Below, one piece after another: positions 18,760 through 22,841 of a stretch of 64,000 bases of DNA (position 1 is its first letter; each line of letters opens with the position of its first letter). Both the position numbers and the translations under genes were made by a program. This DNA comes from Bacteroidota bacterium (lineage in GTDB: Bacteria; Bacteroidota; Bacteroidia; Chitinophagales; Chitinophagaceae). The stretch is from the NCBI GenBank assembly GCA_018267965.1, contig JAFDXK010000001.1:1195520-1259519 (forward strand). The letters run 5' to 3'. The notes under the pieces were generated by a model. It worked only from the letters and a program-made list of their open reading frames with translations. It was not told the origin of the DNA and made no database searches.

Positions 18760-18767
18760 TTGAGGGT

Positions 18768-19000
18768 GTTCACTGTTCACTAGTGAACACTTTCATTTTG
18801 CATTTTTCATACCTACTCACGTCATTGCCCGATAATCATCCGTCATATTGACTGCGAGTAACGAAGCAGGAAATATCTCCTGAACATTAGTATGCTGCTT
18901 GGGAGATTTCTCCCTTCGGTTCGAAATGACGGACGGGTTCGTGGGGTGTTCAGATTGAACAGTTGAACACTTGAACACTTTCATTTTGCATTTTTGACCT
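18768..19000. repeat. Left-flank cluster of TGTTCA/TGAACA palindromic repeats, two units each followed by tttcattttgcattttt
   Basis: Unit A at 18771..18795 is gtgttcactgttcactagtgaacac, which contains the perfect 16-bp palindrome tgttcactagtgaaca. Unit B at about 18949..18981 is gtgttcagattgaacagttgaacacttgaacac. Both are followed by the identical 17-mer tttcattttgcattttt. Confidence 0.7.
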
Positions 19001-19129
19001 CCCTTGTTTCACTTCATTCAACATCCCCTCCTTACAAAAGGAGGGGACAAAGGGGCGGTACAATATCTTTAACCTCCCGCATATTGCAATAACTTATGCG
19101 TTATAGTATATTAGATATACTAAACTGCA

Positions 19130-20608
19130 TTGAAAACCTTACAACAAATATTAGCTTTTATACAACCTGCACCCAGGCTGAAGTTGTTGATGTTTGTGGT
19201 GGTTTGTTACTGTCTGTCACTCAATCTTTCTTTTCCCCGCCAACCTGATTATAATGAGTTTAACACTTCTTTGGAGAGGAGTATGGCTATAGAGAAAAGA
19301 AGTACAGCAAAAAGACTTAATGCTATTGAAGAAGAAGGAAAAACATACCGAGAACGTTATACAGTATATTTAGAAAAAGCCTACAATATCAACGCATGTT
19401 TTCTTAAAGTCACTGCAAATATTGATTCTATAAAAAGTTGCATTGATCCTACTTCAACGCATAAATATCATGTAAGTGCAGAAACAATTGATTATTTAGA
19501 TAACAGCATAAATCAATTCCTTAAGTCAATCGGCGATAATATCAGCCAGAATATTAGAGACTATCTTGTTAAGGATATTACCGATTGTCTATTTAAAGAA
19601 ACAAGCAACAAAACCTTATTAACAGCACTTTTAAAAGATAAAACTGCGAACGAAACTTATACGCTTTTAACCGTAATACAAAACAACATTACTTTATCTA
19701 ATGAAGTAGCTATTCAGGAAATTTCAAAAGAAGCTGGTGGCTGTAACTTAATATGTGATATACCATTTTGTGTTGCCATTCCTTTAACCTGTTATGTGCA
19801 ATACGGAGATAAAGTAAAAGCTCAAATGTTTATTGGCAATTACAACAAAGCTACCAACCCTACTTTTACTACCAATAGAGGCCATATAACAAAAGTTGAA
19901 AATGGATTAGCTTCATTAATTGCCAATACTAAATACCCGGGGCTATACCAATTATACGGCACTGCTACATTAGAAGATTACGACGATACAATTATCAGAC
20001 CGTGGTCTACTCAATACTATGTAGCTAACCAGGGAGTGTTTATGAACATATGCAAACCTAATTATTGCTACAGAGGCATGAATAATACCGTTACACTTAA
20101 CTATCCGGGTTATGAAGCTGATAAATTATCATTAAGGGCTGATGGTGCTAAAGTGATAAAACTATCTGATGGCAGGTATAATATTATAGTTGATAAATCT
20201 CCTAAAGAAATTACAGCCTATATGGATGGCATCAACCCCGATGGCAGTAAGAGTGTTGCACTGGCTACCAAGCGAATTATTGTGGCTAATCCTCCCCCAC
20301 CCATAGCTTGCGTGGGCGATAATGCGGGTGGTCATATCAGTTTAAAAGAACTAACTCGTAACAACAAACTATCTGTAACACCCCGTGATGAAGACATAGA
20401 TATGGTGTATAGTATTAAGAGTTATCAAATTACATGTTTGAATAGCAAGTCTTTTACCGAAGCTGTAACTATTGAGGGAGGTGTATTTGACAAAGATATC
20501 ATCAGCAAACTTCAGCATGGCGACAGGATATATTTTACAGACATTGTGGCTGCCGACAAGAATGGGAAAATGATTACAGTGCCACCTGTTGCATTTGTCA
20601 TTGAGTAA
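19130..20608 (+). CDS. Hypothetical membrane-anchored protein with GldM/PorM C-terminal-like region
   Basis: 492 aa with one N-terminal hydrophobic helix. The C-terminal 150 aa show patterned similarity to the GldM C-terminal Ig-like domains (GD-x-I/V-x-F/I-x-x-I ... P-x-V-x-x-V-I-E end). No gldK/L/N neighbours. The start codon is uncertain. Confidence 0.4.
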   Translation: MKTLQQILAFIQPAPRLKLLMFVVVCYCLSLNLSFPRQPDYNEFNTSLERSMAIEKRSTAKRLNAIEEEGKTYRERYTVYLEKAYNINACFLKVTANIDSIKSCIDPTSTHKYHVSAETIDYLDNSINQFLKSIGDNISQNIRDYLVKDITDCLFKETSNKTLLTALLKDKTANETYTLLTVIQNNITLSNEVAIQEISKEAGGCNLICDIPFCVAIPLTCYVQYGDKVKAQMFIGNYNKATNPTFTTNRGHITKVENGLASLIANTKYPGLYQLYGTATLEDYDDTIIRPWSTQYYVANQGVFMNICKPNYCYRGMNNTVTLNYPGYEADKLSLRADGAKVIKLSDGRYNIIVDKSPKEITAYMDGINPDGSKSVALATKRIIVANPPPPIACVGDNAGGHISLKELTRNNKLSVTPRDEDIDMVYSIKSYQITCLNSKSFTEAVTIEGGVFDKDIISKLQHGDRIYFTDIVAADKNGKMITVPPVAFVIE

Positions 20609-20772
20609 AAATGAAAAGTACAGGTGTTCAACATTGAACACTTGAACAGTTAAACACCATCACTAACAAATAAAGAAAAGCAAAAATTAGCACAACTTAT
20701 TGAATATTAGCGCATTGTATCGAAATGCAAAATGCAGGTGTTCACGGTGTTCACTAGTGAACAGTGAACACT
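20609..20772. repeat. Right-flank cluster of TGTTCA/TGAACA palindromic repeats, inverted relative to the left flank
   Basis: 20745..20769 gtgttcactagtgaacagtgaacac is the exact reverse complement of 18771..18795. 20625..20660 gtgttcaacattgaacacttgaacagttaaacac is a B-like unit. Each is preceded by aaaatg(c)aaaatg, the reverse complement of the left-flank 17-mer. Confidence 0.7.
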
Positions 20773-21180
20773 TTACAATCCTCCCATCTTCATTATCTTT
20801 TTGTACTCGGCTGGTTTTACAGTGCCTACGCTCAAACGCCCGAGGCGTACCAAGTCCATATCTTTAAAAGCAGGGTCTGCTTTCAATGCTTCGAGTGTTA
20901 CGGGCTTAGGCATGGCTTGTACAGGTTTTAAATCTACCACTACCCAGTTCGGGTCATCCGTCGTAGGGTCCTGGTATGCTGTTTTTACGACTTCAGCTAT
21001 ACCTACTATTGCAAGCCCTTCATTACTATGATAAAAGAATACATGGTCGCCTTTGGACATTGCACGCAGGTTGTTGCGAGCAGCATAATTACGCACACCA
21101 TCCCAAACAGCTTTCTTGTCTTTTACCAACTGTTCCCAACTATATTTAAACGGTTCTGATTTTACGAGCCAGTAATTCAT
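20773..21180 (-). CDS. EVE domain (PUA-like) protein
   Basis: 135 aa. MNYWLVKSEPFKYSWEQL...GDHVFFYHS is the characteristic EVE/ASCH-like PUA fold N-terminus. Confidence 0.8.
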   Translation of the reverse strand: MNYWLVKSEPFKYSWEQLVKDKKAVWDGVRNYAARNNLRAMSKGDHVFFYHSNEGLAIVGIAEVVKTAYQDPTTDDPNWVVVDLKPVQAMPKPVTLEALKADPAFKDMDLVRLGRLSVGTVKPAEYKKIMKMGGL

Positions 21181-21187
21181 GTTTTAT

Positions 21188-21379
21188 TTATGATTTATGT
21201 TTACTAAGTAAATAAACTTTACGCCAAAGCAATATAGTTATTATTAAAAAAGCAGCAGTCATAATCACAAACCCATAGAATAGCTGTTTATATTCGTACA
21301 CATCGTAGCAATTAGGTATGGCTAATAAAGACACTAATGTCATTACGATAGCAGCAATAATAAAAATCACTTTTTTCAT
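21188..21379 (-). CDS. Small hypothetical membrane protein (about 64 aa, two TM helices)
   Basis: The ATG at 21379 (MKKVIFIIAAIV...) gives two hydrophobic helices. The six-frame track extends it to a TTG at 21403. It lies inside a duplicated copy of the EVE gene 5' end. Confidence 0.4.
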   Translation of the reverse strand: MKKVIFIIAAIVMTLVSLLAIPNCYDVYEYKQLFYGFVIMTAAFLIITILLWRKVYLLSKHKS

Positions 21380-21462
21380 GGTTCTGATTTTACGAGCCGG
21401 CAATTCATGAGTATCGAATATTAATACGCCAATTTACGATAAAGAACTTATTTTTAAAGACA

Positions 21463-21780
21463 ATGACAGATACAGATAATAGCAACGAAGCACGAACAGC
21501 AATTGTAGGCTATATCGTTTTATTGCTACTTGTAAATATTGCCGGCTGTGCTAAAATATACAGTGCAGGCGGATGGGCTCAATTAGGCATGCTTGTGTTT
21601 GTTGCCCCCATATACGAGGGATTATTTTTATTGTTTGGCTGCATTATGGTATGGCGATTGGACAAAAAGTATCCTCAAAAAGATTTTGGATTGTACTGGT
21701 TTACAGTCATTGCCCTACCCATCTTGCTTTATGCAGTAACTGCCATGTTTACGTTTGCCTATTCCAAAGGAGGCTGTTAG
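21463..21780 (+). CDS. Hypothetical membrane protein
   Basis: 105 aa with three predicted TM helices and no recognisable family. Confidence 0.4.
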   Translation: MTDTDNSNEARTAIVGYIVLLLLVNIAGCAKIYSAGGWAQLGMLVFVAPIYEGLFLLFGCIMVWRLDKKYPQKDFGLYWFTVIALPILLYAVTAMFTFAYSKGGC

Positions 21781-21803: not shown

Positions 21804-22343
21804 ATGATGAAGAGATTATTCACTGCACTGTTAGTAAGTATATCTGTTGTAACGTTTGCACAAAAAGTACCAGATTGCAACCAGGCGCGTTTTGAAGATG
21901 CACTGCTTGATAAAATGCAAGGCGAATGGGTGATGACCGGTAAACTGGGAGAAAAAGATGTGGTGTATAATGTTAGTTGCAAATGGGTATTGAACCACCA
22001 GTTTTTAGAATGGGACTTCGTAAATGCCACCAATGCCATTCAATACGAGGCAAAAGTATTCATTGGCTATAACTGTACCGACAAACGCTATGTAATGCAC
22101 TGGATGGATATGATGGGTGGCAAGTTTTCGGAAGCACTAGGCTATGGAATAAAAGTGAGTGGCAAAGAAATAGATTTTAAATTCAAACGCCCAACTGACA
22201 TCGACCCTAACAAATACATTAATCAAAACAATAAAATCTCCTACAACCCCGATAACGATATGTGGCAGTTTCATGTAGTGATGCTGAACGACAAGAAACA
22301 ATGGGTTACCTGGTCGATGAATACGATGGCACGGAAGAGGTAG
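21804..22343 (+). CDS. Hypothetical secreted protein
   Basis: 179 aa with a signal peptide (TFAQ) and a Trp-rich beta-type composition. No recognisable family. Confidence 0.45.
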   Translation: MMKRLFTALLVSISVVTFAQKVPDCNQARFEDALLDKMQGEWVMTGKLGEKDVVYNVSCKWVLNHQFLEWDFVNATNAIQYEAKVFIGYNCTDKRYVMHWMDMMGGKFSEALGYGIKVSGKEIDFKFKRPTDIDPNKYINQNNKISYNPDNDMWQFHVVMLNDKKQWVTWSMNTMARKR

Positions 22344-22403
22344 CAGCTGATTATGCAATATTTCGAATAATGGCTCCGTTGTATATAAAACATTATTTAC
22401 GCC

Positions 22404-22841
22404 ATGAGAACCTATGTTATATTCGCCGTTGTTTTGTTATATTGTACTGCATGTCACAAAAAGGGTACAAGCATTCAATACAGTTCGGATATCACTACAA
22501 AGGATATATATCTTTCTACAATTAAGCATGTAAAGATTGTGAATATCAACAAGAAAAATGTATTAGATACTACCTTAATTGGGAGCACAAGTTTTCAACT
22601 TATAAAAGATACAGCTGCAAAGAAAGTATACGTTGTAGGGTTAAACAGCAGGATAGATACGTTTCCTGCTGCATTGGAATACTATAACCAATATTACGGA
22701 TATAGTATCGGAGATACAGATATTATATTGGATGTTACCATTTATCATCCTGATACAGTAAGCGTTTGGATTGGATATTACAATGATACCACCAAACAAT
22801 TTATTAATGGCTACATCTATGATGGTCATAAACAGAAATGA
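22404..22841 (+). CDS. Hypothetical lipoprotein
   Basis: 145 aa with a signal peptide and a lipobox-like LLYCTAC motif. Confidence 0.4.
   Translation: MRTYVIFAVVLLYCTACHKKGTSIQYSSDITTKDIYLSTIKHVKIVNINKKNVLDTTLIGSTSFQLIKDTAAKKVYVVGLNSRIDTFPAALEYYNQYYGYSIGDTDIILDVTIYHPDTVSVWIGYYNDTTKQFINGYIYDGHKQK

What the first reader, a model, noticed from the sequence alone, without database searches (positions are those of the whole stretch)
21149..21411. About 31-bp duplication of the EVE gene 5' end brackets a small membrane-protein ORF
aaacggttctgattttacgagccagtaattcatg (codons 1-10 of the EVE gene, MNYWLVKSEP) recurs at 21378..21411 as catggttctgattttacgagccggcaattcatg, with 3 mismatches. The second copy encodes MNCRLVKSEP followed by TGA, overlapping the ATG of a 64-aa two-TM ORF by ATGA. 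The small ORF thus sits between two copies of the EVE start and is translationally coupled to a 10-codon pseudo-leader. This looks like an insertion with target duplication or a local duplication that created a new small gene. It could also act as a leader peptide.
Basis: seen in the sequence. Interest (0 to 1): 0.55.

Follow-up and report, generated by a model that had tools for sequence, protein, structure and literature searches.

The report
Imported small gene splits EVE start
A 228-base piece carrying a small membrane-protein gene and a fresh copy of the EVE gene's start has been spliced into a Flavipsychrobacter-like bacterium's EVE gene after codon 10, leaving the original first ten codons as a decaying stub; it is a tidy recombination scar, not a new kind of system.

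Summary
The first 10 codons of the EVE gene (window 21150-21181, 37 nt if extended to 21145) recur 228 nt upstream (21373-21409), 29/32 identical. No shuffle and none of about 80 relatives' loci come close. The upstream copy is the original EVE start. It lies 53 nt from the divergent 105-aa gene, as in relatives with 93-97% identical EVE, and its 54-nt upstream region aligns with their native EVE promoter region. Those relatives lack the 228 bp. The 63-aa two-helix membrane ORF between the copies is a real gene. Its only detectable homologue (48% identity, E=3e-11, dN/dS about 0.2) lies 7 nt upstream of EVE in a more distant relative (L081), with the same 7-nt spacer and no long repeat. So the small gene was imported, not born here. 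The stub differs from the consensus start at only 2 of 31 positions, while synonymous sites are saturated even against the nearest relative, so the event is recent. My best reading is recombination anchored on EVE homology, by a homology-facilitated illegitimate join or a single crossover of a small circle. A transposon-type target duplication is less likely. The finding is ordinary in kind, with a new two-member orphan small-protein family.

The parts
20773..21180 (-). Intact EVE-domain gene (135 aa).
   Evidence: Pfam PF01878 E=5e-50. It is 93-97% identical to the EVE proteins of L082-L095.
21145..21181 (-). Repeat copy 1: the base before the ATG plus EVE codons 1-10 (core 21150-21181) and a few weakly matching bases beyond. 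This is the functional start of the present EVE gene.
   Evidence: the repeat finder family D1; the DNA search.
21181..21187 (-). 7-nt spacer (ATAAAAC on the minus strand) between the small-ORF stop and the EVE ATG.
   Evidence: Read from the sequence. L081 has the same 7-nt spacing (305 to 313).
21188..21379 (-). Small gene: a 63-aa predicted two-helix membrane hairpin. It has an MKK N-terminus, a conserved loop IPNCxDVxEYK and a basic C-terminus.
   Evidence: The only homologue is P0001 (48% identity, E=3e-11). pN 0.35 against pS 0.71. AlphaFold gives helices 2-20 and 27-62 with pLDDT 77. No Pfam, NCBIfam or PADLOC family matches.
21376..21408 (-). Relic of the original EVE start (repeat copy 2, 21373-21409). 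It is now a 10-codon ORF, MNCRLVKSEP, whose TGA overlaps the small-ORF ATG (ATGA).
   Evidence: C3 and R4 are seen in none of 99 relatives' N-termini.
21409..21462 (.). Native divergent promoter/5'UTR region shared by the 105-aa gene and EVE. It contains TCTTTATCGTAAATTG and ATACTC directly before the relic ATG.
   Evidence: It aligns with the native EVE upstream regions of L082, L083, L088 and L090, scoring 13-20 against a null of 4.4+-2.6 (max 13, n=63).
21463..21780 (+). 105-aa membrane-protein gene divergent from EVE. It serves as the positional landmark.
   Evidence: It is 57-61% identical to the 104-aa gene at the same place in L083-L095, which lies 58 nt from their EVE ATG.
21181..21408 (-). 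The 228 bp extra relative to close relatives. Because of the repeat its boundaries can be slid anywhere between 21150-21377 and 21181-21408.
   Evidence: It is absent from L082-L099.

Best explanation
In a recent ancestor of this genome, a donor DNA carrying the arrangement 'small membrane-protein gene - 7 nt - EVE gene' recombined with the resident EVE locus, which had the arrangement 105-aa gene <- promoter -> EVE. A similar donor-type arrangement exists in the more distant relative L081. EVE homology anchored the exchange on one side. The other end joined illegitimately to the resident EVE gene after codon 10, at GAACCAT|G. An equivalent route is a single crossover of a small circle carrying the small gene plus about 32 nt of the EVE start. 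The product keeps the resident promoter and resident codons 1-10 (copy 2). These are now a useless stub that has picked up Y3C and W4R and ends at a TGA made by the junction. The stub is followed by the imported small gene and a complete EVE gene beginning at copy 1. Shown here: the repeat, the native position of copy 2, the absence of the insert in close relatives, and the homologous small gene next to EVE elsewhere. Inferred: the recombination route. Also inferred: all three ORFs are read from one mRNA started at the native promoter, with termination-reinitiation at ATGA and across the 7-nt spacer.
For: Copy 2 sits at the native start. It is 53 nt from the tm105 ATG, against 58 nt in L083-L095. 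Its upstream 54 nt aligns with native EVE upstream regions, including ATACTC|ATG as in L082 and L002. No locus with 89-97% identical EVE has the small ORF or the 228 bp. The small ORF's only homologue lies directly upstream of EVE in L081 with the same 7-nt spacer, so the small gene and the EVE start plausibly travelled together. The repeat's 5' edge is at ATG-1, exactly where a donor EVE and the resident EVE become homologous. Copy 2 differs from the consensus or L082 start at 2 of 31 positions, while EVE dS between the window and L082 is about 1.4, so the event is recent. The small proteins are only 48% identical with saturated dS, so the gene is old and was imported. Duplication of the homologous segment flanking heterologous DNA is the documented outcome of single-crossover integration (PMC3240628). 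Homology-anchored illegitimate insertion has been proposed to leave displaced gene remnants in T6SS and Rhs loci (PMC5361080).
Against: No donor lineage with a closely similar small gene was found; the only other member is 48% identical. The test for a donor-derived 5' part of EVE is inconclusive. The L081-versus-L082 breakpoint has p=0.0014, but the control L002 versus L082 gives a similar breakpoint with p=0.0098. Classic HFIR usually deletes recipient DNA rather than duplicating the anchor. The illegitimate joint falls exactly at the small ORF's ATG, which is an unexplained coincidence. A 32-nt homology is at the lower limit for RecA-type crossover, and a 228-bp circle is very small (both points from my own knowledge).
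Confidence: 0.55

Rival explanations
1. A cassette-like mobile unit consisting of the small ORF with minimal flanks inserted into the EVE 5' end through a staggered cut of about 32-37 bp. Repair of the cut duplicated resident sequence, giving a true target-site duplication.
For: The direct repeat brackets the insert exactly, and the ORF fills the insert. A homologous small ORF lies within about 40 nt of the EVE start in a second lineage but at a different point (-8 in L081 against +30 here). L081's sister L001 lacks it, which could mean repeated insertion near this site.
Against: The insert ends carry no inverted repeats. There is no second copy in the window or in 100 loci. No integrase or transposase is found among ORFs of 150 aa or more within about 9 kb. 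No viral, plasmid or phage relatives exist. A 32-37 bp target duplication is far longer than those of known transposases (my own knowledge). The repeat begins exactly at ATG-1, which a staggered cut does not explain. The 7-nt spacer is shared with L081.
Confidence: 0.15
2. The leader-small ORF-EVE structure is old. The two copies are kept similar by gene conversion or by selection on the leader. Relatives lost the cassette repeatedly by precise recombination between the repeats, which restores a normal EVE gene without a scar.
For: Direct repeats of 32 nt (19 nt in an exact run) make scarless deletion easy. The small gene occurs in two lineages separated by lineages without it. L001 and L081 differ by the presence or absence of just the ORF.
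Against: It needs at least five independent losses among the sampled lineages. L081 shows no long repeat. Copy 2 carries two radical replacements, so it is not selected as a peptide. A 19-nt identity run is short for conversion (my own knowledge).
Confidence: 0.12
3. A local duplication of the EVE start plus de novo emergence of a small ORF from non-coding sequence.
For: The ORF is AT-rich, hydrophobic, and an orphan in Pfam, NCBIfam and PADLOC. The word-indexed search of 5.8 billion proteins found nothing.
Against: A full HMMER scan found a colinear homologue of the same length (E=3e-11) next to EVE in L081. pN is well below pS. The conserved loop motif is IPNCxDVxEYK.
Confidence: 0.03
4. An assembly artefact that joined two strain variants, or a chance repeat.
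For: Both L001 and L081 contigs end just upstream of this locus, which hints at strain heterogeneity around EVE in metagenomes.
Against: Chance is excluded. The copies differ at 3 positions, and the junction GAACC|ATGAAAAAAG needs real reads spanning it. Reading frames are intact on both sides.
Confidence: 0.03

Closest known systems
Homology-facilitated illegitimate recombination (HFIR), described in Acinetobacter, Streptococcus pneumoniae, Pseudomonas stutzeri and E. coli (summarised in PMC3240628).
   Same: Foreign DNA enters next to a gene that supplies a one-sided homologous anchor. The other end joins at a point with little or no homology.
   Different: Typical HFIR products delete recipient DNA of similar size. 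Here about 32 nt of the anchor is duplicated and nothing is lost. The route is inferred, and no donor has been identified.
Single-crossover (Campbell-type) integration of a circular molecule, which duplicates the homologous segment (lacZ duplications of 109-950 bp in PMC3240628).
   Same: Heterologous DNA ends up flanked by direct copies of the shared segment. The structure can revert by recombination between the copies.
   Different: The shared segment here is only 32-37 nt and the implied circle only 228 bp. No plasmid or vector sequence is present.
Displaced gene remnants in T6SS effector-immunity and Rhs/CDI arrays (PMC5361080).
   Same: Incoming modules anchored on a conserved gene part push the resident copy aside. 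Orphan fragments remain beside an intact gene.
   Different: Those arrays keep 3' fragments and immunity genes and carry a selective logic of retained immunity. Here a 10-codon 5' stub is left and no such logic is evident.
Transposon or casposon target-site duplications, and CRISPR repeat duplication by Cas1-Cas2 (my own knowledge).
   Same: A direct duplication of target sequence flanks inserted DNA. CRISPR repeat duplication is of similar length (about 28-37 bp).
   Different: No inverted repeats, no transposase or Cas1 nearby and no further copies. The duplicated segment starts exactly at the gene's ATG.

Membership tests
EVE domain protein (Pfam PF01878) | Full-length match to the EVE profile above the gathering score. 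| tested here: met
   169.6 bits against a cutoff of 23, residues 2-132.
IS/MITE-type insertion with target-site duplication | Terminal inverted repeats at the insert ends. | tested here: not met
   No inverted-repeat pair has arms at 21182-21200 and 21360-21377.
IS/MITE-type insertion with target-site duplication | Additional copies of the element elsewhere. | tested here: not met
   The 196-bp insert matches nothing longer than 15 nt in the 64-kb window, and nothing significant in 80 loci. Only the window and the fetched loci were searched, not the whole genome.
IS/MITE-type insertion with target-site duplication | A transposase or integrase encoded in or near the element. | tested here: not met
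   The neighbours are RNase R, polyprenyl synthase, RRF, FA hydroxylase, LpxK and similar. Only ORFs of 150 aa or more within about 9 kb were scanned.
Homology-facilitated illegitimate recombination product | The inserted DNA is contiguous with a segment homologous to the recipient (the anchor). | tested here: met
   The insert is followed after 7 nt by the EVE start. The same small ORF-7 nt-EVE layout occurs in L081.
Homology-facilitated illegitimate recombination product | Donor-derived sequence within the anchor (a mosaic gene). | tested here: inconclusive
   Max-chi-square for L081 against L082 gives p=0.0014, but the control L002 against L082 gives p=0.0098 at a similar site, and synonymous sites are saturated.
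Homology-facilitated illegitimate recombination product | Microhomology of 3-10 bp at the illegitimate joint, and deletion of recipient DNA. | tested here: inconclusive
   Only AT/CAT microhomology can be inferred, from L082-like CCATTC and L081-like CAATG. There is a duplication and no deletion, which is atypical.
Campbell-type single-crossover integration | Direct duplication of the shared segment on both sides of the heterologous DNA. | tested here: met
   37-nt repeat, 86% identical, spacing 228.
Campbell-type single-crossover integration | A circular intermediate carrying one copy of the shared segment. | not testable with these tools
   This needs outward-facing PCR or split reads from the source sample.
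Regulatory leader peptide / attenuator | The leader ORF is conserved in relatives and linked to alternative RNA structures or a terminator. | tested here: not met
   The stub is absent from all relatives. No terminator-like site lies between 21181 and 21462. The fold z-score is 0.57. There is no Rfam hit.
Integron gene cassette | An attC-like imperfect palindrome at the 3' end and an integron integrase or cassette array nearby. | tested here: not met
   No palindrome lies at the ORF's 3' end. No integrase is found among the neighbours scanned.

The most novel reading that the evidence does not exclude
The small membrane-protein gene, together with the highly conserved first 30 nt of EVE, behaves as a recombination-mobilisable cassette. 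It would loop out as a circle by recombination between the flanking EVE-start copies and re-enter naive EVE genes of other strains through that same conserved segment. This would explain its appearance at slightly different points beside EVE in two lineages and its absence in their sisters. It might also reflect a functional partnership between the membrane hairpin and the EVE modified-base reader.
Probability: 0.07. Interest if true: 0.55.

Novelty: new member of a known kind. Interest (0 to 1): 0.27.

Why it matters
The locus is a clean natural example of how a gene can be spliced into the 5' end of another gene without killing it. The incoming DNA brings a replacement start, and the resident start survives as a short upstream ORF. 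The timing can be read from the decay of that stub. The case also shows that a 63-aa ORF with no database family can be validated by one distant homologue in conserved synteny. It adds a two-member orphan small membrane protein linked to EVE genes in Flavipsychrobacter-like bacteria. It does not reveal a new class of mobile element or regulator.

Tried and rejected
1. Homologues of the small ORF. The word-indexed search of 5.8 billion proteins, run with the single sequence and with a two-sequence profile, returned nothing beyond P0001. Two metagenome scans, a viral scan and plasmid and phage tblastn also found nothing. Only the full HMMER scan of representatives succeeded.
2. A decayed relic of the EVE start upstream of L081's small ORF. 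TCATAAAATCA lies 4 nt before its ATG, against TCGTAAAATCA 5 nt before the window's. The local-alignment p is only about 0.07. AAAATCAT also occurs in the native EVE 5'UTRs of L001 and L087-L089. I left this unresolved and did not use it.
3. Similarity of the sequence just upstream of copy 1 to L083/L087-type 5'UTRs. The score is 15/30 ungapped, which is weak. Not used.
4. Mosaic test on EVE for a donor-derived 5' part. A control pair gives the same pattern.
5. Tandem-duplication-plus-deletion origin. The 196-bp insert resembles nothing downstream of EVE or elsewhere in the window.
6. Structured RNA or a riboswitch in the region. No credible Rfam hit and no excess folding.
7. Defence-system context. 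PADLOC gave only sub-threshold EVE hits.

Full report
**The observation**

- The EVE gene is 20773..21180 on the minus strand (Pfam PF01878, E=5e-50).
- Its first 10 codons plus the base before the ATG (21150-21181) recur at 21378-21409.
- The repeat finder extends the pair to 37 nt at 86% identity with a spacing of 228 nt.
- The 30-nt core has two mismatches and never recurs in 100 shuffles.
- As a biological control, I looked in each of about 80 relatives' loci for the best match of that locus's own first 33 EVE nucleotides within 600 nt upstream. The maximum is 19/33, against 28/33 in the window.
- On the minus strand copy 2 reads MNCRLVKSEP followed by TGA. The TGA overlaps the ATG of a 63-codon ORF (21379..21188) that ends 7 nt before the EVE ATG.

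**Organism and ancestral layout**

A scan of one genome per species with the EVE protein places the window in Flavipsychrobacter-like Chitinophagaceae. In ten syntenic relatives the polyprenyl synthase gene ends 14-160 nt before EVE.

A protein search then found closer EVE relatives at 89-97% identity. I fetched the contigs of several of them.
- In L083-L095 (93-94% identical EVE) the order is RNase R, polyprenyl synthase, a 104-aa gene on the opposite strand, 58 nt, then EVE.
- That 104-aa gene is 57-61% identical to the window's 105-aa gene at 21463..21780.
- None of these loci has the small ORF or an extra 228 bp. Nor does L082 (97%), L090-L092 (94%), L096 (91%), L097 (90%) or L098-L099 (89%).

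**Which copy is the original**

Copy 2's ATG (21408) lies 53 nt from the ATG of the 105-aa gene, which matches the 58 nt seen in L083-L095. The 54 nt upstream of copy 2 align with the native EVE upstream regions of L082, L083, L088 and L090. The scores are 13-20, against 4.4+-2.6 (maximum 13) for 63 unrelated upstream regions of the window.

Two elements are shared:
- TCTTT(A/G)T(C/T)GTAA(A/T)TTG, which resembles the Bacteroidetes -7 promoter box (my own knowledge, not tested).
- ATACTC directly before the ATG in L082 and L002.

The sequence upstream of copy 1, by contrast, is the 3' end of the small ORF. Copy 2 is therefore the resident EVE start with its promoter. The extra piece is [small ORF + 7 nt + a second EVE start].

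Copy 2 encodes C3 and R4. Neither residue occurs in any of 99 relatives' N-termini, where W4 is present in 98 of 99. Copy 2 is decaying.

**The small ORF is a real, older gene**

The word-indexed protein search found nothing, and neither did two metagenome scans. A full HMMER pass over 1.84 billion representatives found one credible homologue, P0001 (61 aa, 48% identity over residues 1-60, E=3e-11).

The contig encoding P0001 is L081. It places the gene at 120-305, 7 nt upstream of an EVE gene at 313-720. This is the same position and the same spacer length as in the window.

The two proteins align colinearly. They share a conserved loop IPNCxDVxEYK and the motif TILLWxKVY. Between them pN=0.35 and pS=0.71, giving dN/dS of roughly 0.2 with dS saturated. 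AlphaFold predicts a helical hairpin (helices 2-20 and 27-62, pLDDT 77). The basic termini and acidic loop fit an in-out-in topology (inference).

L081 has no long repeat of its EVE start. Its sister L001 (EVE 96% identical at the protein level) shares the upstream region but lacks the ORF.

**Timing**

EVE synonymous divergence between the window and even its nearest relative is saturated (dS about 1.4 against L082). Copy 2 nevertheless differs from the L082 or consensus start at only 2 of 31 positions. Unless gene conversion intervenes, the split of the start is much younger than the divergence from L082. It is also far younger than the divergence of the two small proteins. The small gene therefore came in from elsewhere.

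**Mechanism**

The repeat begins at ATG-1, exactly where a donor 'small ORF-7 nt-EVE' and the resident 'promoter-EVE' would start to be homologous. The small ORF keeps the same 7-nt distance to EVE as in L081. Both facts fit an import anchored on EVE homology.

Two routes could give this product:
- An HFIR-like event whose illegitimate joint fell inside the resident gene after codon 10. A resident like L082 reads GAACCAT|TC, and the product reads GAACCAT|GAAAAAAG, which creates the TGA.
- A single crossover of a small circle carrying one copy of the shared segment.

The literature documents that single crossovers duplicate the shared segment, while classic HFIR usually deletes recipient DNA (PMC3240628). 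It has also been proposed that homology-anchored insertion leaves displaced gene remnants in T6SS and Rhs loci (PMC5361080).

Several features argue against a transposon-type target duplication:
- No terminal inverted repeats.
- No other copy.
- No recombinase among the neighbours.
- No viral, plasmid or phage relatives.
- A duplication far longer than usual.

I could not show a donor-derived 5' part of EVE, because the mosaic test is matched by a control. I also could not find a close donor. The route therefore remains inferred, with confidence 0.55.

**How it probably works now (inference)**

Transcription starts at the native promoter in 21409-21462. The mRNA carries three ORFs in order: the 10-codon stub, the small membrane protein reached by ATGA termination-reinitiation, and EVE after a 7-nt gap. 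No terminator, Rfam family or unusual RNA structure lies in between. The flanking repeats (19 nt in an exact run) would allow scarless loss of the small gene.

**Unresolved**

In L081 the small ORF sits about 8 nt upstream of EVE within a 5'UTR shared with L001. The insertion points therefore differ between the two lineages. I could not decide whether this reflects independent imports, a leader deletion, or a cassette-like behaviour. A possible relic of the EVE start upstream of L081's small ORF is not significant.

**Verdict**

The insertion reading is partly right, and the 'new gene' reading is wrong. This is an ordinary recombination scar with a neat anatomy, plus a new orphan small-protein family. 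Interest is low to moderate.

Noticed in passing
window 18760-20772: About 2 kb carrying a GldM-like 492-aa ORF (19130..20608, +; Pfam GldM 2nd and 4th domains) lies between EVE and the FA-hydroxylase gene. It is absent from every relative. In relatives this slot holds a different small gene in almost every lineage (72, 128, 139, 154, 202 or 249 aa).
   Followed up: partly
window 18765-18810, 18944-18997, 20599-20650, 20713-20775: A local repeat family with a hairpin core GTGTTCA-N4-TGAACAC (18773, 20624, 20747) and a tail GAACACTTTCATTTTGCATTTT (18785 and 18973 on +, 20722-20743 on -) bounds the GldM-like extra segment. The copies could be terminators or the ends of an inserted block.
   Followed up: partly
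window 21804-22841: A DUF1579 gene (21804..22343) and a 145-aa lipoprotein-like ORF (22404..22841) sit between the 105-aa gene and the polyprenyl synthase stop. L083-L095 have only about 12 nt there. This is a second, separate gain at the same locus.
   Followed up: partly
L004 3510-3902; L001 1-219; L081 1-119: The region upstream of EVE is a general hot spot. L004 has a 130-aa lipoprotein ORF between the synthase and EVE. L001 and L081 have a different upstream neighbour followed by a terminator hairpin. Three contigs (L001, L002, L081) end 119-219 nt (130 in L002) upstream of EVE or of the small gene.
   Followed up: no
L081 717-935; L001 626-920: A small lipoprotein-like ORF overlaps the EVE stop (ATGA/TAATGA) downstream of EVE in L081 and L001. 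It is another lineage-specific small gene coupled to EVE.
   Followed up: no
L084 1366-2616: In GCA_044225815.1 the polyprenyl synthase is called as three fragments (98, 50 and 209 aa), whereas L085 from the same lineage has an intact 319-aa gene. This is probably a frameshift or an assembly error.
   Followed up: no
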